Shown in pieces: positions 36,897 through 47,025 of a DNA stretch of 64,000 nucleotides; position 1 is the stretch's first letter, and every line of letters begins with the position of its first letter. Where the stretch lies: the IMG/VR virus record IMGVR_UViG_3300009159_008407; one strand, 5' to 3'. This stretch comes from an uncultured virus (IMG/VR IMGVR_UViG_3300009159_008407) (taxonomy: Duplodnaviria; Heunggongvirae; Uroviricota; Caudoviricetes). Below the pieces are notes generated by a model. That model did no database searches, was not told where the DNA came from, and saw only the letters and a program-made list of their open reading frames with translations. Both the position numbers and the translations under genes were made by a program.

Positions 36897-37673
36897 ATGA
36901 CCAAAAAACCTCGACGTCGGGATGAAAATCCTGAGTTAGTTGCAGAAATTTATGAAAACATTAATAAAAATGCTGTACTAAATTATGAGATAAAAACACC
37001 GTTCCAGTTTAATGATAAACATAAAGAGTTTTTGCAGTTATTACAGACAAATAAAACGAAAATGGTATTTGTAGACGGACCTGCAGGTACAGCTAAGACA
37101 TATATTGCTGTCTTAGCTGGTTTACATCTTTTAAAAGAACATTATATTGATCAAATTTTTTATATCAGATCAATTGTAGAATCTGCATCAAAGCAGATGG
37201 GATCACTTCCTGGTGAAGTAAATGATAAATTTTTACCGTGGTCAATGCCACTAATTGAAAAAATTACAGAAATTAGCAGCAAATCTACAGCTGATAACCT
37301 CTATAAAAGTGAGATGATTAAAGGTATACCTGTTAACTATTGTCGTGGTCTTACCTTTAATCGATCTCTTGTAATCGTTGATGAATCACAAAATTTAAGT
37401 AAAGAAGAACTAACTACCATTCTTACTAGATTTGGACATAAATCCAAGTACGTAATCGTTGGTGACACATTTCAAACAGATATTAGAAATTCTGGATTTA
37501 GAGATGTGCTCAACGCATTCAATACACCATTTAGTAAAGATAATGAGATCTATTGCTTAAAGTTTGGTATAAACGAAATTGTACGTTCTGAAATACTAAA
37601 ACATATTGTTAAAGTATTAGAAGGTATACCTAAATATCATCCCCACCTCGTTCCAGCAAATAATCCTGAGTAA
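36897..37673 (+). CDS. phoH: PhoH-family ATPase
   Basis: GPAGTAKT, LPG, RGLTF, DESQN, TRFG, GD..Q.D, IVRS. Confidence 0.92.
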   Translation: MTKKPRRRDENPELVAEIYENINKNAVLNYEIKTPFQFNDKHKEFLQLLQTNKTKMVFVDGPAGTAKTYIAVLAGLHLLKEHYIDQIFYIRSIVESASKQMGSLPGEVNDKFLPWSMPLIEKITEISSKSTADNLYKSEMIKGIPVNYCRGLTFNRSLVIVDESQNLSKEELTTILTRFGHKSKYVIVGDTFQTDIRNSGFRDVLNAFNTPFSKDNEIYCLKFGINEIVRSEILKHIVKVLEGIPKYHPHLVPANNPE

Positions 37674-38311
37674 TTACCACTAGTTGCTCGCTTACCTACT
37701 GGAGCTGCATTACTTTCTGTAGCTACCTGTTCTTTTTCTACTTCAGCTACCTGTTGTTCTACATGTTGCTGTGCTTTTTTAGCTTCATTTTCAAGATATG
37801 TTTTTACAATAGCTTCAGCATCTTCTGTAGTTGGTGTAAAAATTGAATTATCTACATAACGAGGATTAGAATAAATTGCTGAGTTTCTATCATGTTCAAA
37901 TACTTCAACTTTTTCAACCCAACGTAGTTCACCATATTTTGATTTTAAATAATTAGTTGCAACTTCGAAGCAAATTTCAGCAACTCTTTCAGCACCAACA
38001 CCTCTTTCGAAAATACGAAGATCAACAATACCTTTTTCATTAAGGGCTTTAAAATCTTCTAGATGAGGATCATCTGCTGCTACACAAAGAGTATGATCAA
38101 AGATACCATTTAATGTATTTTTAATCTCATCAAGTTCACCAAAGTCAATAATCCAATTACGACCATCTAAAAATGGACCTGCGAAATTAAACTTTGCTTT
38201 TAATTCATAACCATGAATTTTTGAACAATGACTATGTGTTGCTCTCCACTGACGGAATGCACAAGAACCAAGACTAATTAATTTTGTTGAAGAATATATA
38301 CTGCTACTCAT
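37637..38311 (-). CDS. queD: 6-carboxytetrahydropterin synthase
   Basis: SHCSKIHGY, WIIDFG, FDHT, GAE, EVFEH. Confidence 0.85.
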   Translation of the reverse strand: MSSSIYSSTKLISLGSCAFRQWRATHSHCSKIHGYELKAKFNFAGPFLDGRNWIIDFGELDEIKNTLNGIFDHTLCVAADDPHLEDFKALNEKGIVDLRIFERGVGAERVAEICFEVATNYLKSKYGELRWVEKVEVFEHDRNSAIYSNPRYVDNSIFTPTTEDAEAIVKTYLENEAKKAQQHVEQQVAEVEKEQVATESNAAPVGKRATSGNYSGLFAGTRWG

Positions 38312-38459
38312 ACATTTATTATAGCTGGTATTTTTATCTTTTCAACTTTTTTTTTATTAGATGTTATGACTTTATTTAATATGGTATGAGATCAAAAATC
38401 AACTGACTATTTTTTTATTATTTTTATCTTGAATATTGTAATTAATAAGCCATAATATA

Positions 38460-39071
38460 GTGAATATGAGTCAAAAATATGATATTAAACAAGCAGAGCA
38501 AGCTTACGGTCAATTTCTAAGTGCACTTGGCTTCGATTGGCAAAATCATCCGCATATGGAAGATACACCTCGTCGAGTTACTAAAGCATGGGTTAACGAT
38601 CTAGCAGCAGGTTGCTTTATGGATGAACCTAAAATTACTGCATTTACTAATGATGGTCAATATGATGGTATGGTATGTCAAACTAATATACCTGTTGTGA
38701 GTATGTGTGCACATCATAACTTACCTTTCTTTGGATATGCTCACGTAGCTTATCTACCAGATCCAGATGGTAAAGTAATTGGTTTATCTAAACTAAATCG
38801 TATTGTTGATTATTTTTCACGCAGACCTTCTGTACAAGAAAATTTAACGATGAGTATTCACAAATATATTAGTGATTTATGTATTAATAATAAAGGTGTT
38901 GCAATTATGGTTGAAGCAAATCATACTTGTTGTTCTTTGAGAGGTATTAAACAAAATTCAACTATGCGTACAGCTCGTATGTCTGGTTCATTCCATGAGA
39001 CGGGTGATAATAGTAGAAATGAATTTTATAAATTTATTGAATTTGCTCAAGGTAGTAGATCTTTGGTTTAG
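38460..39071 (+). CDS. folE: GTP cyclohydrolase I
   Basis: DTPRRV, SMCAHHNLPF, GLSKLNR, VQE, HTCCSLRG. Confidence 0.95.
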   Translation: MNMSQKYDIKQAEQAYGQFLSALGFDWQNHPHMEDTPRRVTKAWVNDLAAGCFMDEPKITAFTNDGQYDGMVCQTNIPVVSMCAHHNLPFFGYAHVAYLPDPDGKVIGLSKLNRIVDYFSRRPSVQENLTMSIHKYISDLCINNKGVAIMVEANHTCCSLRGIKQNSTMRTARMSGSFHETGDNSRNEFYKFIEFAQGSRSLV

Positions 39072-40079: not shown

Positions 40080-40155
40080 CCCTGTGAAGCAAATCTGGAG
40101 ATTGCGCTCGCCTGAAGAGTGAGACGGTAAGGTTCGATTCCTTACACAGGGACCA
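40080..40155 (+). tRNA. tRNA-Phe(GAA)
   Basis: cloverleaf, loop CTGAAGA, encoded CCA. Confidence 0.9.
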
Positions 40156-40160
40156 TTTAT

Positions 40161-40248
40161 GGGGTAGCGCTGAAGTTGGAGAGTCAGGACAGACTGTAAA
40201 TCTGTAGCCTCTGCGGCTGAGTTGGTTCGAATCCAACCTACCCCACCA
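40161..40248 (+). tRNA. tRNA-Tyr(GTA)
   Basis: loop CTGTAAA, long variable arm, CCA. Confidence 0.92.
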
Positions 40249-40253
40249 TTTAT

Positions 40254-40320
40254 GTCGGCTTCTACCCGACCTCTGAAGTTCAGACTTTCGGTGATCTGAA
40301 GTAAAAGAAAACACCGTCCA
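40254..40320 (+). ncRNA. pseudoknotted CCA-terminated non-tRNA element A
   Basis: GTCGG/CCGAC hairpin; TTCAGA/TCTGAA stem whose loop CGGTG complements 3' CACCG; ends TCCA. Confidence 0.55.
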
Positions 40321-40326
40321 ATTTAT

Positions 40327-40418
40327 GGAAGAATGGCTGAGCCTGGTTTAAGGCGGCGCACTTGAAATGCGTTGAGGCCTAAAAACCTCCGTGAGTTCGA
40401 ATCTCACTTCTTCCTCCA
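40327..40418 (+). tRNA. tRNA-Ser(TGA)
   Basis: loop CTTGAAA, long variable arm, CCA. Confidence 0.93.
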
Positions 40419-40419
40419 T

Positions 40420-40493
40420 GCGTTATGGATGTGATGGCTGCATATGACCTTGCCAAGGTTATTGAATGGGCTCGAATCCCATATAACGCTCCA
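40420..40493 (+). tRNA. tRNA-Gly(GCC)
   Basis: loop TTGCCAA, U73, CCA. Confidence 0.85.
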
Positions 40494-40501
40494 ATTTTTA
40501 T

Positions 40502-40585
40502 GCTGGATTACCCAAGTGGCCAAAGGGGATGGTTTTGTAAACCATTGCGATAGCTTCGTGAGTTCGAATCTCACATCCAGCTCCA
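40502..40585 (+). tRNA. tRNA-Thr(TGT) with extended variable arm
   Basis: loop TTTGTAA, CCA. Confidence 0.88.
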
Positions 40586-40594
40586 ATTTCAAAA

Positions 40595-40669
40595 GCGGTG
40601 TAAATGTTAATGGCTGCACACCTGACTTCCAATCAGAAGGAGAGGGTTCGATTCCCTCACACCGCACCA
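40595..40669 (+). tRNA. tRNA-Gly(TCC)
   Basis: loop CTTCCAA, CCA. Confidence 0.88.
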
Positions 40670-40676
40670 ATTTCAA

Positions 40677-40753
40677 CAGGATATAGCGCAGTCTGGTAGC
40701 GCACTCGCCTTGGAAGTGAGTGGTCGTTGGTTCGAATCCAACTATCCTGACCA
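40677..40753 (+). tRNA. tRNA-Pro(TGG)
   Basis: loop CTTGGAA, canonical D/T arms, CCA. Confidence 0.93.
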
Positions 40754-40755
40754 AT

Positions 40756-40847
40756 TTAGGCGGCAGGTCAATGGCCATTTATGATGTGTGTGGGAGCCAG
40801 ATATTGATTATTGATGCATAGATAGCGGAATAAGCACATCAGCCTAA
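40756..40847 (+). ncRNA. structured non-tRNA element B
   Basis: TTAGGC/GCCTAA closing stem, TGATGTG/CACATCA stem, possible GTCAATG/TATTGAT loop-loop pairing. Confidence 0.5.
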
Positions 40848-40858
40848 TTAATTTTCAA

Positions 40859-40935
40859 CAGGATATAGTTGTAGCCTGGTAGCACACTAGATTTGGGATC
40901 TAGAAGCGCGAGTTCAAATCTCGCTATCCTGACCA
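40859..40935 (+). tRNA. tRNA-Pro(TGG), second copy
   Basis: loop TTTGGGA, same acceptor stem as first copy, CCA. Confidence 0.88.
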
Positions 40936-40940
40936 GTTTA

Positions 40941-41023
40941 TAAGATCGGCCCGGAGCATACCCGATAAAAAGGCACTTAGAAAGAAACCTTCGCATAGCG
41001 AAAACTTACCAAAGACCGGCCCA
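40941..41023 (+). ncRNA. pseudoknotted CCA-terminated non-tRNA element C
   Basis: TAAG/CTTA, ATCGG/CCGAT, AAGG/CCTT, TCGC/GCGA stems; loop CCGG complements 3' CCGG; ends CCCA. Confidence 0.5.
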
Positions 41024-41026
41024 TAT

Positions 41027-41120
41027 GGAGAGTTAACTAGACAAGGCGCTAGGGATGTTTGCTAAACATCACGCACTTCCTAAAAAGAGGTGTGCGGGGC
41101 AGGACCGCAGCTCTCCTCCA
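41027..41120 (+). tRNA. tRNA-Ser(GCT), atypical T loop
   Basis: loop TTGCTAA, long variable arm, T loop GGCAGGA, CCA. Confidence 0.85.
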
Positions 41121-41123
41121 TTT

Positions 41124-41203
41124 TTGTAGAGCAGCAATGCTAGTGTGTGGCCGAAAGACTGATGGTGAGGCGTTTCGGGTAAAACCTCGCAACCATCCTA
41201 CAA
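41124..41203 (+). ncRNA. four-way-junction RNA with kissing loops, element D
   Basis: four helices with no unpaired junction bases, GCAA tetraloop, CCGAAA/TTTCGG loop complementarity. Confidence 0.65.
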
Positions 41204-41211
41204 TTTCAAAT

Positions 41212-41286
41212 GCCCCTGTAGCTGAGCAGCTTTAGCAATGGACCGATAAACCATAGACGTTGGTGCAAATCCAACTAGGGGTGCAA
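41212..41286 (+). tRNA. tRNA-Ile(GAT), degenerate
   Basis: loop CCGATAA (C33), A:A mismatch in anticodon stem, ends CAA not CCA. Confidence 0.6.
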
Positions 41287-41294
41287 ATTTCAAA

Positions 41295-41368
41295 CCTTCT
41301 GTAGCTGAGTGGTTTAGCTCTGTCTTGATAAGGCAGCGACGCAGGTTCAATTCCTGCCAGAAGGACCA
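41295..41368 (+). tRNA. tRNA-Ile(GAT)
   Basis: loop TTGATAA, CCA. Confidence 0.9.
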
Positions 41369-41374
41369 ATTTAT

Positions 41375-41450
41375 ATCCGGTAATGTTCCAAGGCTGGCGA
41401 CTTAGACTCCAAATCTGAGTGGGTGGGTTCGATTCCCACACCGGGTGCCA
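41375..41450 (+). tRNA. tRNA-Trp(CCA)
   Basis: loop CTCCAAA, G73, CCA. Confidence 0.9.
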
Positions 41451-41458
41451 TTTTAAAT

Positions 41459-41533
41459 GCCTCGTTAGTGTAATGGAAAGCACGTTTCGCTACGAACGAA
41501 AAAGTAGGAGTTCGAATCTTCTATGAGGTACCA
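41459..41533 (+). tRNA. tRNA-Arg(ACG)
   Basis: loop CTACGAA, CCA. Confidence 0.9.
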
Positions 41534-41537
41534 TTTC

Positions 41538-41612
41538 CGCGCAATAGTGTAAGGTAAAGCACGCTGGCCACACTGGTGCCAGAGGAAGGGTGAAAAGCCT
41601 GATGCGCCACCA
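41538..41612 (+). tRNA. tRNA-like gene with 9-nt anticodon loop, identity undetermined
   Basis: intact D arm and CTGGC/GCCAG stem, loop CACACTGGT, degenerate T arm, ACCA end. Confidence 0.55.
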
Positions 41613-41620
41613 TTTCAAAT

Positions 41621-41697
41621 ACTCTCGATGCTACAGTAGATCGGCACCCGGCTCTTAACCGGATATGATGAGGTTGCAACTACCTCCGAGAGTACCA
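41621..41697 (+). tRNA. tRNA-Lys(CTT)
   Basis: loop CTCTTAA, T loop TGCAACT, CCA. Confidence 0.85.
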
Positions 41698-41706
41698 ATT
41701 TCAAAT

Positions 41707-41783
41707 GCCCGTATAGCACAACTGGTAGATGCATATGATTTAGGATCATAATGTTGGGGGTTCGAATCCCTCTACGGGTACCA
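41707..41783 (+). tRNA. tRNA-Leu(TAG), short variable arm
   Basis: loop TTTAGGA, CCA. Confidence 0.9.
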
Positions 41784-41792
41784 ATTTCAAAT

Positions 41793-41867
41793 GGCTCCTT
41801 AGTGTAATGGTTAGCACAGAAGATTTTGAATCTTTTAGTCCAAGTTCGAGTCTTGGGGGAGCTGCCA
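41793..41867 (+). tRNA. tRNA-Gln(TTG)
   Basis: loop TTTTGAA, CCA. Confidence 0.9.
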
Positions 41868-41876
41868 ATTTCAAAA

Positions 41877-41950
41877 GCCTCTATAATTCAATGGTAGAAT
41901 GATCGTTTCATACGCGATAAACGCTGGTTCGATTCCAGCTAGAGGCACCA
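41877..41950 (+). tRNA. tRNA-Met(CAT) elongator (or Ile2)
   Basis: loop TTCATAC, CCA. Confidence 0.85.
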
Positions 41951-41959
41951 ATTTCAAAA

Positions 41960-42036
41960 CATCCTAAAGCCACAGTAGACCGGCACCGGACTTTTAATCC
42001 GGTATGGTGAGGTTGCAACTACCTCTGGGATGACCA
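41960..42036 (+). tRNA. tRNA-Lys(TTT)
   Basis: loop CTTTTAA, T loop TGCAACT, CCA. Confidence 0.85.
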
Positions 42037-42082
42037 ATTTCAAAAGGAAATAAGTTATAATAAAAGAGTAATTAATTTAAAT

Positions 42083-42159
42083 GACGGTGTAGATTAGTTG
42101 GTTAAATCGTCACGCTTTCAACGTGAAGACCGCGGGTTCGATCCCCGTCGCCGTTACCA
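42083..42159 (+). tRNA. tRNA-Glu(TTC)
   Basis: loop CTTTCAA, CCA. Confidence 0.92.
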
Positions 42160-42168
42160 ATTTCAAAT

Positions 42169-42246
42169 AGAGCTGAAGTCAAACAGCATTGACACTCGCC
42201 TGTCGAGCGAGATATAGAGTGGGGGCAGCACCCATCAGCTCTGCCA
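42169..42246 (+). tRNA. tRNA-Asp(GTC), atypical T loop
   Basis: loop CTGTCGA, G73, T loop GGCAGCA, CCA. Confidence 0.85.
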
Positions 42247-42255
42247 ATTTCAAAT

Positions 42256-42329
42256 TGCAGGTAAGTGGTCTAGTGACCATTCTGGGCTCATAACCCATAG
42301 AGCGCGGTGCGATTCCCGACCTGCATCCA
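42256..42329 (+). tRNA. initiator tRNA-fMet(CAT)
   Basis: GGG/CCC anticodon-stem pairs around CTCATAA, CCA. Confidence 0.82.
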
Positions 42330-42334
42330 ATTTT

Positions 42335-42682
42335 ATGAAACAACCAATCTTCGTTATCAATAAAAGTAAAATCAAAGAGATAGTTGAGCATCAGTGTAAG
42401 TTTACAGGAATTCCTTATTCTCTAGATTGGGGTCATATTAAATCAATTGAAGAACTTTTTGAAAAACTCGATAACGAGGCAACTGAATTTGGGTGTATTA
42501 GAATGCATCGAGTTCATGATTGCATCTACAGCTTTGAGTCACATAAGATGATTACCAATGCAAATAGAATGCTCGATAGAGTTTTTGCATTGTGTAAAAT
42601 ATACAGAGAAGATTTAAACAAAATTTTAGTTGAACAACAATTAGACAGAATATATATTGTTGCAGATAAAAATCCCCAGTAG
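42335..42682 (+). CDS. hypothetical protein inside tRNA array
   Basis: 115-aa ORF; its TAG lies inside tRNA-Asn. Confidence 0.65.
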   Translation: MKQPIFVINKSKIKEIVEHQCKFTGIPYSLDWGHIKSIEELFEKLDNEATEFGCIRMHRVHDCIYSFESHKMITNANRMLDRVFALCKIYREDLNKILVEQQLDRIYIVADKNPQ

Positions 42683-42747
42683 CTCAGTGGTAGAGCGGAC
42701 GGCTGTTAACCGTCATGTCGTACGTTCGAACCGTACCTGGGGAGCCA
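42673..42747 (+). tRNA. tRNA-Asn(GTT)
   Basis: canonical cloverleaf, loop CTGTTAA, CCA. Confidence 0.95.
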
Positions 42748-42789
42748 ATTTAATAGTTGATTCAGATAGGAAAGATATTATAATAAAGT

Positions 42790-42987
42790 ATGACAAAAAC
42801 ATATGACCAACTTAAAGAACTAACTGAAGCTTTTGCAATTGATGATGAAAAATTCATCAACGGTAAATCATCTGCAAGTACAAACGCACGAAAGCGTCTA
42901 CAAGAGATTATCGTACTAGCTAAAGCTCGTCGTAATGAAATTACAGCAGAGAAAAATGCTCGTAAAGAGACAAAAGTTTCAGAGTAG
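42790..42987 (+). CDS. Hc1/histone H1-like small basic protein
   Basis: EKF..GKSSASTNARKRLQEI...K..R.EI pattern. Confidence 0.75.
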   Translation: MTKTYDQLKELTEAFAIDDEKFINGKSSASTNARKRLQEIIVLAKARRNEITAEKNARKETKVSE

Positions 42988-42994
42988 GTAAATT

Positions 42995-43069
42995 GCCCGA
43001 ATAGCTCAACGATAGAGCGCCCGCCTTACACGCGGATTGTTGTAGGTTTGAATCCTACTTCGGGTACCA
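42995..43069 (+). tRNA. tRNA-Val(TAC)
   Basis: loop CTTACAC, CCA. Confidence 0.9.
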
Positions 43070-43075
43070 TTTTAT

Positions 43076-43150
43076 GGGGCGTTAGTGATAATGGTAGCAC
43101 ATGATCCTTGCACGGTTGAAGAAAGGGTTCGAATCCCTTACGCTCCACCA
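43076..43150 (+). tRNA. tRNA-Ala(TGC)
   Basis: G3-U70 pair, loop CTTGCAC, CCA. Confidence 0.92.
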
Positions 43151-43153
43151 ATT

Positions 43154-43498
43154 TTGATAGTAAGGAAAGACGCAGGTTGCGTGTAATGAGAAAATAATGT
43201 GAGGGGCCGGGTAAGACCTGAAATGCATTGCAATGCAAAGTATGATAATACTGGACGGAAGCATTATGAAGTGTATATTACAAACGGAGAATGGGCAGAG
43301 AGGGATCTGTAGATAGACCAGATACTCTTGGATACCTCACCGGCTATCGATATTCAGAAATATTCAACTAACTGTCAGTTTCGTTGCTGTTCCTGGCACT
43401 TTGGCTGTTCAGATTCACGTCTGACTGGGTGCGCTTGCACAAGCTCATTGAATGGTTTCTGAGGCACTCGTTGAATTAGCTACTCAATAGAGTGTCAA
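43154..43498 (+). ncRNA. about 345-nt structured RNA candidate, element E
   Basis: GC-richer than coding DNA, long-range stems, followed by the tRNA spacer ATTTTCAAAT. Confidence 0.5.
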
Positions 43499-43510
43499 CA
43501 ATTTTCAAAT

Positions 43511-43585
43511 GCGCAATGAGCCAGCTGATGTAGGTGGCGGTCTGCAAAATCGCTTAGCAGGGTTTGATTCCCTGATTGCGCTCCA
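43511..43585 (+). tRNA. tRNA-Cys(GCA)
   Basis: loop CTGCAAA, U73, CCA. Confidence 0.88.
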
Positions 43586-43593
43586 ATTTAAAT

Positions 43594-43668
43594 GCCTGGT
43601 TCGTTCAACGGATAGGACAAGGCTCTTCTAAAGCCTTTATGTGGGTTCGATTCCCGCACCAGGTACCA
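43594..43668 (+). tRNA. tRNA-Arg(TCT)
   Basis: loop CTTCTAA, CCA. Confidence 0.92.
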
Positions 43669-43677
43669 CTTTCAAAA

Positions 43678-43752
43678 TCTCTTCGTATCATAAAAGTAAT
43701 GTCATCGCCTGTGAAGCGATCTAAGATGGAGCATTACCATCCAAGAGAACCA
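43678..43752 (+). tRNA. tRNA-His(GTG), atypical
   Basis: loop CTGTGAA; A73, no encoded G-1, T loop AGCATTA, CCA. Confidence 0.7.
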
Positions 43753-43760
43753 CTTTCAAT

Positions 43761-43837
43761 GCCCTGGTAGCACAATTGGTAGATGCATCGGATTTAAGAT
43801 CCGTGTGTTGTCGGTTCGAATCCGACTCAGGGTACCA
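43761..43837 (+). tRNA. tRNA-Leu(TAA), short variable arm
   Basis: loop TTTAAGA, CCA. Confidence 0.9.
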
Positions 43838-46929: not shown

Positions 46930-47025
46930 ACTCCAGTAGCTCAATTGGCAGAGCGGAAAGCTTATACCTTTCGTATGGCCCAGATTAGGCCGCGGTTGTC
47001 GGTTCGATCCCGGCCTGGAGTACCA
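46930..47025 (+). tRNA. tRNA-Ile(TAT) with long variable arm
   Basis: ACTCCAG/CTGGAGT acceptor, loop CTTATAC, GGCC-CAGATTA-GGCC variable arm, CCA. Confidence 0.88.

What the first reader, a model, noticed from the sequence alone, without database searches (positions are those of the whole stretch)
41124..41203. Perfect four-way junction RNA with kissing loops (element D)
Seen: P1 TTGTAG/CTACAA, P2 AGCA-GCAA-TGCT (GNRA loop), P3 AGT/ACT and P4 GATGGT-GAGG/CCTC-ACCATC abut with no unpaired junction bases. The P3 loop CCGAAA (41151) complements the P4 loop TTTCGG (41173). The element is followed by TTTCAAAT like neighbouring tRNAs. I cannot match it to hammerhead, hairpin, twister or HDV-like cores. 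Inference: a compact, tRNA-sized tertiary fold with loop-loop docking reminiscent of a tRNA elbow.
Basis: seen in the sequence. Interest (0 to 1): 0.7.

Follow-up and report, generated by a model that had tools for sequence, protein, structure and literature searches.

The report
Folded small RNA among phage tRNAs
An 80-base gene wedged between transfer-RNA genes of an uncultured freshwater phage encodes a small folded RNA that evolution has kept in shape, belongs to no catalogued RNA family, and has no known job.

Summary
The element is real on the + strand. I found 13 distinct full-length close variants (about 88% identical or more) and two diverged relatives in other phage contigs. P1, P2 and P4 keep pairing through compensatory changes: in 14 sequences, 393 of 393 cells are paired and 9 pairs changed on both sides, which 0 of 500 shuffles reached. 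All G.U wobbles lie on the + strand.

- P3 shows only a one-sided change.
- GAGG/CCTC holds in the window only. The pair is broken in 11 of 13 variants, and CCTC is deleted in both diverged relatives. A GCG/CGC helix fits all sequences instead.
- The CCGAAA/TTTCGG "kissing" pair is invariant in all 15 sequences, so it is conserved but untested. With P4 it makes an H-type pseudoknot followed by an A-rich loop.

The fold is no more stable than shuffled sequence (z -0.35). Rfam 15 gave no match at E<=10. The element is not a tRNA, hammerhead or HDV-like ribozyme, and it does not match the T4 or T5 stable RNAs.

It sits 2-3 nt after a tRNA's 3' end as ARAGORN placed it, 3 nt after the encoded CCA in the window. 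My best reading is a small RNA released by tRNA-type processing that acts through its invariant pseudoknot core. Its function is unknown.

The parts
41124..41203 (+). The whole 80-nt RNA element (element D)
   Evidence: R1 scores 110.3 bits here and finds no second copy in the window. There are 13 distinct full-length variants in other contigs.
41124..41129 (+). P1, 5' strand (TTGTAG); pairs with 41198-41203
   Evidence: 5 of 7 P1 pairs changed on both sides, and all cells are paired.
41130..41141 (+). P2 hairpin: 4 bp with a GNRA tetraloop (GCAA, 41134-41137)
   Evidence: 3 of 4 pairs changed on both sides. The loop is GCAA or GAAA in every sequence that has P2.
41142..41160 (+). P3 (AGT 41142-41144 / ACT 41158-41160) with its 13-nt loop
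   Evidence: All cells are paired, but the only change is A-U to G.U in 3 sequences. P3 adds about 0.2 kcal/mol. It is plausible, not proven.
41151..41156 (+). Pseudoknot strand K5' (CCGAAA)
   Evidence: Invariant in 15 of 15 sequences, including scans that left it free. It complements 41173-41178.
41161..41166 (+). P4, 5' strand (GATGGT); pairs with 41192-41197
   Evidence: 2 of 6 pairs changed on both sides, with one G.U intermediate. One cell is unpaired (A.A in L266).
41170..41172 (+).
Evidence: Pairable in 15 of 15 sequences but never varies.
41173..41178 (+). Pseudoknot strand K3' (TTTCGG)
   Evidence: Invariant in 15 of 15 sequences. It directly follows GCG, so K could stack on that helix (inference).
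41179..41187 (+). A-rich loop (GTAAAACCT) between K3' and CGC
   Evidence: 6 to 9 nt long in the three lineages: TAAATT in L249 and TGCAAT in L266. An A-rich loop here could lie in the minor groove of K, as in classical H-type pseudoknots (inference from recalled general knowledge).
41188..41190 (+). CGC, partner of GCG 41170-41172
41192..41197 (+). P4, 3' strand (ACCATC)
41198..41203 (+). P1, 3' strand (CTACAA)
41027..41120 (+). Upstream non-canonical tRNA-Ser(GCU); its CCA (41118-41120) ends 3 nt before the element
   Evidence: ARAGORN finds it only in mitochondrial mode. Default ARAGORN and Rfam miss it. The homolog in L009 is called tRNA-Ser(gct) by ARAGORN with its score threshold lowered (-ps).
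41121..41123 (+). 3-nt U-rich spacer between the tRNA's CCA and the element
   Evidence: The spacer reads TTT or ATT in the contexts listed. ARAGORN-based spacing is 3 nt in 5 contexts and 2 nt in 1, out of the 6 where the upstream tRNA is called.
41204..41211 (+). 8-nt spacer TTTCAAAT before tRNA-Ile(GAU) 41212-41284
   Evidence: The distance to the next tRNA varies from 7 to 119 nt among relatives.

Best explanation
Element D is a gene for a small structured non-coding RNA of about 80 nt, read from the + strand as part of the phage's tRNA operon.

I infer that it is cut out of the tRNA precursor by the same host nucleases that mature the flanking tRNAs. One cut would fall in the U-rich 3-nt spacer after the upstream CCA. 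RNase P would cut at the next tRNA. The closing stem P1 would then protect both ends, leaving a stable RNA.

Its scaffold helices (P1, P2 with a GNRA cap, P4) may change sequence as long as they pair. The centre is invariant: AGUGUG...CCGAAAGACUGAUG...GGCGUUUCGG...UCGC. I take this centre to form an H-type pseudoknot (CCGAAA/UUUCGG interlocked with P4 and GCG/CGC, crossed by an A-rich loop), and to be the working surface that binds a partner in trans. That partner would be a protein, another RNA or a small ligand.

Shown: gene-like conservation, strand, helices P1, P2 and P4, and the genomic niche. Inferred: co-transcription, the processing route, the pseudoknot and the trans-acting role. The function itself is unknown.
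For: Niche:
- It sits inside a + strand array of 23 tRNAs by default ARAGORN, more in relaxed modes.
- It lies 3 nt after the CCA of the upstream tRNA and 8 nt before tRNA-Ile.

Conservation:
- 13 distinct full-length variants came from viral and metagenome contigs.
- Two diverged relatives share only this element and tRNAs with the window. Their 3-kb loci have 44.6% and 36.7% G+C against 33.3% for the window.

Structure:
- 393 of 393 cells are paired.
- 9 pairs changed on both sides (P1 5 of 7, P2 3 of 4, P4 1 of 6), reached by 0 of 500 shuffles. Slid controls gave 0-2.
- With L266 included, P4 has 2 such pairs.

Strand: all 7 G.U cells are G.U on the + strand and would be C.A on the other strand.

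Invariant centre: the CCGAAA/UUUCGG and GCG/CGC columns are unchanged in 15 of 15 sequences. Nearby loop positions vary or carry indels.

Tight coupling to a tRNA 3' end:
- The spacer is 3 nt in 5 and 2 nt in 1 of the 6 contexts where ARAGORN calls the upstream tRNA, which is Pro(UGG) or Ser(GCU). In L249 it is 5 nt after tRNA-Thr.
- Downstream distances vary from 7 to 119 nt.

Cassette behaviour:
- Two paralogous types sit in one contig (L009/L048).
- The element is cleanly absent in the complete 184.5-kb relative G002.

Precedent: the T4 and T5 records annotate small stable RNAs of unknown function in their tRNA regions.

Weak hint of expression: contigs of one lake RNA library (X23) lie on 40932-41138 at depth 68. 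They also cover position 41142, carrying the G seen in 3 of the 5 type-B variants (depth 7 of 10).
Against: - No transcript ends, strand-specific reads or abundance data exist. The RNA-library evidence is from contigs, and DNA carry-over is not excluded.
- The fold is thermodynamically unremarkable: z -0.35 for the window, and -1.0 and -0.29 for the two relatives.
- The pseudoknot has no covariation. A nested P4 extension is preferred by RNAalifold and is about as stable.
- P3 is nearly neutral in energy.
- A complete close relative does without the element, so it is dispensable.
- The family is narrow. Scans of 2.9 million viral contigs found three lineages, and one scan of 185,579 prokaryote genomes found none.
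- The 13 close variants fall into two types, so several compensatory pairs may trace back to only a few events.
- No partner or target was found. The window holds no complementarity of 12 nt or more.
Confidence: 0.5

Rival explanations
1. It is a cis-acting maturation device for the upstream tRNA. The element defines or makes the cut just after the tRNA's CCA. It would do so either as a self-cleaving ribozyme of a new class that cuts at its own 5' edge, or as a folded block that directs a host nuclease. This is the job that HDV-like theta ribozymes do directly behind tRNAs of gut phages.
For: - The spacing to the upstream tRNA 3' end is fixed at 2-3 nt in the 6 called contexts of the D lineage, and 5 nt in L249. 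The downstream spacing is free.
- The invariant, probably pseudoknotted core inside variable helices is the pattern seen in small ribozymes.
- Theta ribozymes show that phages place ribozymes flush behind tRNAs. The paper reports that 568 of 742 tRNA-associated ones lie within 1 nt of the tRNA end (PMC10879173, passages read).
Against: - The L266 relative has no tRNA within its 3-kb locus.
- Only one or two of the more than 25 tRNAs in an array carry the element, and G002 matures the same tRNA-Ser without it.
- No ribozyme family of Rfam 15 matched at E<=10.
- No HDV-like nested double-pseudoknot topology can be drawn in 41096-41235. The scan gave 0 hits against a mean of 0.81 in shuffles.
- The hammerhead core order is not met: GAAA lies 2 nt before CUGAUG, with no room for helices I and III.
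Confidence: 0.15
2. It is a tRNA-shaped mimic or decoy. The RNA copies enough of a tRNA's outline (a 12-bp P1+P4 stack and tRNA length) to be handled by tRNA-binding proteins. It would then occupy a host or phage factor, for example a tRNA-cutting defence nuclease or a modification enzyme, without being able to decode.
For: - It has tRNA size and a tRNA-like place in the array.
- P1 (6 bp) abuts P4 (6 bp). That makes 12 bp, the length of a tRNA acceptor/T stack (sequence; the 7+5 rule is recalled knowledge).
- The L266 relative carries a T-arm-like hairpin CAGG-UGCAAAU-CCUG next to its closing stem. The same loop word occurs in this window's tRNA-Ile.
Against: - There is no tRNA match in Rfam at E<=10, nor in any ARAGORN mode tried.
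- It has no 7-nt anticodon loop, no T-loop, no D-loop, no encoded CCA and no tRNA-type junction linkers.
- P4 continues into a longer hairpin or pseudoknot where a T-loop should be.
- A junction without linkers is expected to form a stacked X rather than an L shape (recalled knowledge).
Confidence: 0.12
3. It is a decayed tRNA gene or a neutral spacer with a chance fold and no function of its own.
For: - The fold is no more stable than shuffled sequence.
- Loose four-way-junction descriptors occur by chance: 9 unrelated stretches in 817 kb on both strands.
- A complete relative lacks the element.
- The 5' part (TGTAG-AGCAGC-AATG) faintly resembles the neighbouring tRNA-Ile with deletions (by eye).
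Against: - 9 pairs show compensatory changes with 100% pairing.
- The GNRA loop is kept while the whole P2 stem is replaced in L249.
- The core is conserved across three phage lineages whose flanks are otherwise unrelated.
- The wobbles are strand-consistent.
Confidence: 0.03

Closest known systems
Phage T4 species 1 and 2 RNAs (rnaC, rnaD) and phage T5 stable RNAs (RNAI, RNAIII, RNAIV, RNA1, RNA2, RNA3, RNA2H, RNAX)
   Same: These are small RNAs of 73-144 nt (RNA2H 172 nt, RNAX 719 nt) encoded inside or at the end of a phage tRNA gene cluster, on the tRNA strand, flush with tRNAs. The records annotate them as stable RNAs of unknown function. The niche and the presumed release by tRNA processing match.
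   Different: No homology. The D models R1 and R2 give nothing better than E 4.4 (R1, filters off) in the T4 region, and no hit at E<=5 (R2, default filters) in the T4 and T5 regions. The sizes and folds differ: T4 rnaC ends in a true T-arm and D has none. A shared 10-mer GACUGAUGGU with T4 rnaD shrinks to GACUGA in the six rnaD relatives aligned and is probably chance.
HDV-like theta ribozymes behind phage tRNAs (PMC10879173)
   Same: A small pseudoknotted RNA placed directly 3' of a phage tRNA. The paper reports them as trimming the tRNA 3' trailer (passages read).
   Different: D cannot form the nested double pseudoknot (P1, P2, P3, P1', P4, P2' in that order): 0 topologies. It has no Rfam HDV match. 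D starts 3 nt after the CCA, not within 1 nt. One relative has no tRNA nearby. Self-cleavage is untested.
tRNA (Rfam RF00005)
   Same: Length, four helices closed by a terminal stem, position and spacing in the array, and a 12-bp P1+P4 stack.
   Different: No anticodon loop, T-loop, D-loop, junction linkers or CCA. No score in Rfam or ARAGORN.
GOLLD and ROOL RNAs (large phage RNAs near tRNA islands; PMC12286853)
   Same: Phage-encoded RNAs of unknown function, often beside tRNA genes, held together by kissing loops and A-minor contacts. Some pairings first read as intramolecular proved to be intermolecular (passages read).
   Different: GOLLD members often exceed 800 nt (passages), and ROOL is about 500 nt or more (recalled). 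D is 80 nt. No Rfam match. Multimer formation by D is pure conjecture.
Classical H-type pseudoknots with an A-rich third loop (frameshift signals, preQ1-I and SAM-II aptamers; recalled, not tested)
   Same: Two interlocked 6-bp helices, with an A-rich loop placed to run along the minor groove of the first.
   Different: D's pseudoknot is embedded in a four-way junction. It is not upstream of any gene, and Rfam models of those classes gave no hit.

Membership tests
tRNA (RF00005) | Cloverleaf scored by the tRNA covariance model or by ARAGORN | tested here: not met
   cmscan found no match at E<=10 in 40930-41215. ARAGORN made no call at 41124-41203 in default, -ps, -ps80, -i or -mt modes.
tRNA (RF00005) | 7-nt anticodon loop on a 5-bp stem, a T-loop, and a 3' NCCA end or a site for its addition | tested here: not met
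   P3 is 3 bp with a 13-nt loop. P4 encloses 25 nt. The 3' end reads CUACAA-UUUCAAAU with no CCA.
Hammerhead ribozyme | Core order CUGANGA, helix II, GAAA, helix III, cleavage site, helix I | tested here: not met
   GAAA (41153-41156) lies 2 nt before CUGAUG (41159-41164), and no helices fit between them. Position 41165, which would be the conserved A9, covaries as a base pair. No Rfam hit.
HDV-like / theta ribozymes | Nested double pseudoknot with P1 starting at the cleavage site and a 3-bp P3 directly before P1's 3' strand | tested here: not met
   My own topology scan of 41096-41235 gave 0 solutions, against a mean of 0.81 in 100 shuffles. No Rfam hit.
HDV-like / theta ribozymes | Self-cleavage at the 5' edge | not testable with these tools
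   This needs an in vitro transcription and cleavage assay.
Twister, twister-sister, pistol, hatchet and hairpin ribozymes | Match to the curated covariance model | tested here: not met
   No family of Rfam 15 reached E<=10 on either strand. Covariance models ignore pseudoknots, so this is not absolute.
T4 rnaC/rnaD and T5 stable RNAs | Sequence and structure homology | tested here: not met
   R1 on the T4 region with filters off: best E 4.4. R2 on the T4 and T5 regions with default filters: no hit at E<=5.
T4 rnaC/rnaD and T5 stable RNAs | Encoded in the tRNA cluster on the tRNA strand, between or after tRNAs | tested here: met
T4 rnaC/rnaD and T5 stable RNAs | Accumulates as a stable processed RNA in infected cells | tested here: inconclusive
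   Only RNA-library contigs overlap the element. There are no ends and no abundance data.
GOLLD / ROOL | Match to the Rfam model; large ornate multi-pseudoknot RNA | tested here: not met
   the element is 80 nt.

The most novel reading that the evidence does not exclude
The invariant pseudoknotted core is the active site of a new class of small self-cleaving ribozyme. It would cut in the 3-nt spacer at its own 5' edge and so release the mature 3' end of the tRNA in front of it. That would be a second, unrelated solution to the task done by HDV-like theta ribozymes.

A second unexcluded reading: the CCGAAA and UUUCGG strands pair between molecules, giving dimers or rings, a miniature of the ROOL and GOLLD assemblies.
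Probability: 0.08. Interest if true: 0.85.

Novelty: new variant of a known kind. Interest (0 to 1): 0.55.

Why it matters
Small stable RNAs in phage tRNA clusters have been known from T4 and T5 for decades (recalled), and their records still annotate them as of unknown function. GOLLD and ROOL show that this niche hides unusual RNA biology.

Element D is short (80 nt) and single-copy. Its helices are supported by covariation and its core is sharply invariant. That makes it a tractable model for asking what such RNAs do and how tRNA processing releases them. The tight 3-nt link to a tRNA's 3' end makes the ribozyme or processing hypothesis cheap to test.

The module also appears in three different scaffolds. 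This suggests that phages exchange folded RNA modules between stable RNAs.

Tried and rejected
- **GenBank phages.** A near search with 4 kb of the array hit only a tRNA-Asn of Acinetobacter phage 133. A distant search with 286 nt around the element found no match at E<=10.
- **Own assembly.** It is not held, so I used the nearest record, G001.
- **Pattern ANCAGNAATGNTNGTGTG.** Too loose: more than 119 chance loci, not used.
- **Pattern TAAAACCTCGCNANCATC.** It found no contigs beyond those already known, plus chance and coding hits.
- My miscounted spacer (14 N instead of 12) gave 25 chance hits. It served only as a background estimate and was corrected.
- Ten contigs with AGTGTG-N7-GACTGATGG proved to be a protein-coding stretch, judged by its third-position variation.
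- **Prokaryote genomes.** 111 pattern hits, none with the D features.
- **More distant relatives.** Phages found through the neighbouring 180-aa protein at 31-55% identity show no R1 match. Of the 10 such loci scanned with ARAGORN, none has more than 3 tRNA calls.
- **RNA libraries.** X6, X17 and X21 gave no useful cover of the element, and contigs cannot show ends or strand.
- **Promoter and terminator scan of the array.** Nothing informative.
- **Base-pairing target in the window.** None of 12 nt or more; one 11-mer, as chance allows.
- **T4 rnaD 10-mer.** Not conserved as such in rnaD relatives.
- **Supplements of PMC10690425.** This paper lists 10,006 candidate viral structured RNAs. The six contig numbers were absent from the 6 files searched. 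Files 1, 2 and 4 could not be searched, so the element may be listed there.
- **Earlier notes of this scan.** None on this genome, and no look-alike by sequence.

Full report
**Setting.** The window is part of an uncultured freshwater phage. The nearest held virus record, G001, shares 95% of the window's sampled words. A second contig carries the region identically. Complete relatives are 184.5 and 224.7 kb long.

The window encodes:
- ribonucleotide reductase, major head and portal proteins, a DNA polymerase and a UvsX-like recombinase;
- GTP cyclohydrolase I, a QueD-like enzyme and PhoH just upstream of a + strand tRNA array.

The array runs from 40080 to 43837, with one further tRNA-Ile(tat) at 46930-47025. 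Default ARAGORN finds 23 tRNAs. Relaxed and mitochondrial modes add several non-canonical ones, among them a tRNA-Ser(GCU) at 41027-41120. Its CCA ends 3 nt before the flagged element. tRNA-Ile(GAU) starts 8 nt after the element.

**The observation.** On its own the fold means little:
- The MFE is -20.5 kcal/mol against -19.4 +/- 3.1 for shuffles, z -0.35.
- A loose descriptor (a closing stem, a 4-bp GNRA hairpin, a 3-bp hairpin and a 5-bp hairpin, with 0-1 junction bases) found 9 unrelated stretches in 817 kb on both strands. One of them has fully abutting helices.
- Rfam 15 found only tRNAs in the window. It found nothing at E<=10 in 40930-41215 on either strand.

**Homologs.** Loci found through the neighbouring 180-aa protein and by DNA patterns gave 13 distinct full-length variants, plus one copy cut by a contig end. 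They come from viral and metagenome contigs and are all close, about 88% identical or more.

The variants form two types:
- Type A (P1 UUGUAG, loop GCAA) follows tRNA-Ser(GCU).
- Type B (P1 UUGCGA or UUGCGG, loop GAAA) follows tRNA-Pro(UGG).

One contig carries both types, 433 nt apart. The complete relative G002 has tRNA-Ser joined directly to the next tRNA, a clean absence of the element plus its spacer.

A scan that fixed only the two complementary hexamers and their spacing found two diverged relatives:
- **L249** (a 90.7-kb contig): 5 nt after a tRNA-Thr by ARAGORN's end. It has a 7-bp P1, a wholly different P2 stem still capped by GAAA, and a loop 3 nt shorter.
- **L266** (a 34-kb contig): no tRNA within 3 kb and no P2. 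Instead it has a T-arm-like hairpin (CAGG-UGCAAAU-CCUG) between P4 and the closing stem.

The two relatives share only the element and tRNAs with the window. A further scan that left both hexamers free recovered the same three lineages and nothing else among viral contigs. It found nothing D-like in 185,579 prokaryote genomes. I found no match in GenBank phages by blastn.

**Structure from comparison** (14 full-length sequences).
- All 393 cells are standard pairs.
- 9 pairs changed on both sides: P1 5 of 7, P2 3 of 4, P4 1 of 6.
- 0 of 500 shuffles reached these values. Sliding the partner by 1-3 columns gave 0-2 such pairs and 28-43% pairing.
- With L266 included in the core alignment, P4 has 2 such pairs, one G.U and one A.A cell.
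- All 7 G.U cells are wobbles on the + strand only, which fixes the coding strand.

P3 is always pairable, but its only change is A-U to G.U. It contributes about 0.2 kcal/mol.

Its second pair is unpaired in 11 of 13 close variants, and CCUC is deleted in L249 and L266. GCG/CGC (41170-41172 with 41188-41190) is pairable in all 15 sequences but never varies.

CCGAAA and UUUCGG are unchanged in all 15 sequences, so there is neither support nor contradiction from covariation. Searches required both hexamers. Searches did not.

RNAalifold prefers a nested extension of P4 (GUUU/AAAC and others) that would compete with this pairing. That extension breaks one pair (G-C at 41167/41190) in both diverged relatives, by my reading. 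Energies do not decide between the two. The extension adds about 7 kcal/mol in most variants. The loop-loop duplex is worth 5-9 kcal/mol before any penalty for closing a pseudoknot.

**Topology.** P4 is real and the two hexamers straddle its 5' strand, so their pairing would be an H-type pseudoknot rather than a kiss of two hairpin loops. UUUCGG follows GCG without a gap, so the two helices could stack. The next 6-9 nt are A-rich and are placed to run along the minor groove of the hexamer helix. This is inference.

These short linkers make the side-by-side "kissing" arrangement strained (my reasoning, not computed).

**What it is not.**
- Not a tRNA. There is no model score, anticodon loop, T-loop or CCA.
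- Not a hammerhead. The core elements are in the wrong order, and the would-be A9 covaries as a pair.
- Not HDV-like. The topology scan gave 0 solutions.
- It does not match the annotated T4 and T5 stable RNAs.

**Expression.** Contigs from one lake RNA library (X23) cover 40932-41138 at depth 68. They also cover position 41142 with a G, the letter that 3 of the 5 type-B variants carry there, at depth 7 of 10. This shows presence in an RNA library and no more.

**Mechanism.** The element keeps a fixed 2-3 nt distance to the 3' end of whatever tRNA precedes it, in 6 of 6 contexts where ARAGORN calls that tRNA (5 nt in L249). Its distance to the next gene is free, from 7 to 119 nt, or a promoter-like stretch followed by an ATG in L249 (the L249 reading is by eye).

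I therefore think its 5' end is made by the nuclease step that trims the upstream tRNA. In E. coli, RNase E cuts U-rich trailers (recalled knowledge). Its 3' side would be freed by RNase P at the next tRNA, and P1 would then shield both ends.

The contrast between freely covarying scaffold helices and an invariant centre points to a working surface that contacts a partner in trans. I put this reading at 0.5. The rivals are a cis-acting or self-cleaving tRNA 3'-maturation device (0.15), a tRNA-shape decoy (0.12) and a neutral remnant (0.03). The remainder is unassigned.

**Literature.**
- Three full-text searches turned up no description of this element.
- I read passages of PMC10690425 (candidate viral structured RNAs), PMC12286853 (GOLLD and ROOL) and PMC10879173 (theta ribozymes).
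- The large supplements of the first paper could not be searched. I therefore cannot say the element is absent from that catalogue.
- Earlier notes of this scan describe other uncatalogued folded RNAs in phage tRNA arrays. None could be tied to this sequence.

**Verdict.** This is a genuine small structured RNA of a new, narrow family in a known niche.

Noticed in passing
window 41027-41120 (+): A non-canonical tRNA-Ser(GCU) with an odd T-loop (GGCAGGA) and a long variable arm. Default ARAGORN and Rfam miss it; ARAGORN finds it only in mitochondrial mode. It directly precedes element D.
   Followed up: partly
window 41534-41620 (+): An unannotated stretch of about 85 nt between tRNA-Arg and a weak tRNA-Lys(CUU) call. 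It ends in ACCA plus the usual spacer and has an acceptor-like GCGCA/TGCGC stem. It is conserved in the relative L007 (8204-8289). It may be another aberrant tRNA or a tRNA-like RNA.
   Followed up: partly
window 40936-41026 and 40754-40858 (+): Two further gaps in the array (91 and 105 nt) with no tRNA call. Contigs of an RNA library (X23) lie on 40932-41138 at depth 68.
   Followed up: no
window 41212-41284 (+): The tRNA-Ile(GAU) just after the element ends in GCA rather than CCA and has the T-loop TGCAAAT. The same loop word appears in the extra hairpin of the L266 relative.
   Followed up: no
L218:3054-3172 (-) (phage T4 rnaD) against window 41157-41166: T4 species 2 RNA contains GACUGAUGGU, identical to 10 nt of D's invariant centre. 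Across six rnaD relatives only GACUGA is invariant (five of six read GACUGAU), so the match is probably chance. The rnaD family has strongly conserved 5' and 3' ends.
   Followed up: partly
window 42790-42987 (+): A 65-aa ORF inside the tRNA array matches the histone H1-like protein Hc1 (Pfam PF07432, E 2.3e-10).
   Followed up: no
window 36897-39071: PhoH, a QueD-like PTPS (37637-38311, - strand) and GTP cyclohydrolase I lie just upstream of the tRNA array. This suggests a 7-deazaguanine pathway in the phage.
   Followed up: no
window 46930-47025 (+): A 96-nt tRNA-Ile(tat) call lies 3 kb beyond the array. It is unusually long, so it may carry an insertion or a long extra arm.
   Followed up: no
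L266:1-328 (-), contig G008: By eye, the D-like core seems to be part of a longer free-standing RNA of about 220 nt. I see an extended -10-like TGGTAGAAT upstream and a GC-rich hairpin with a T-run downstream. The consensus scan did not call either.
   Followed up: partly
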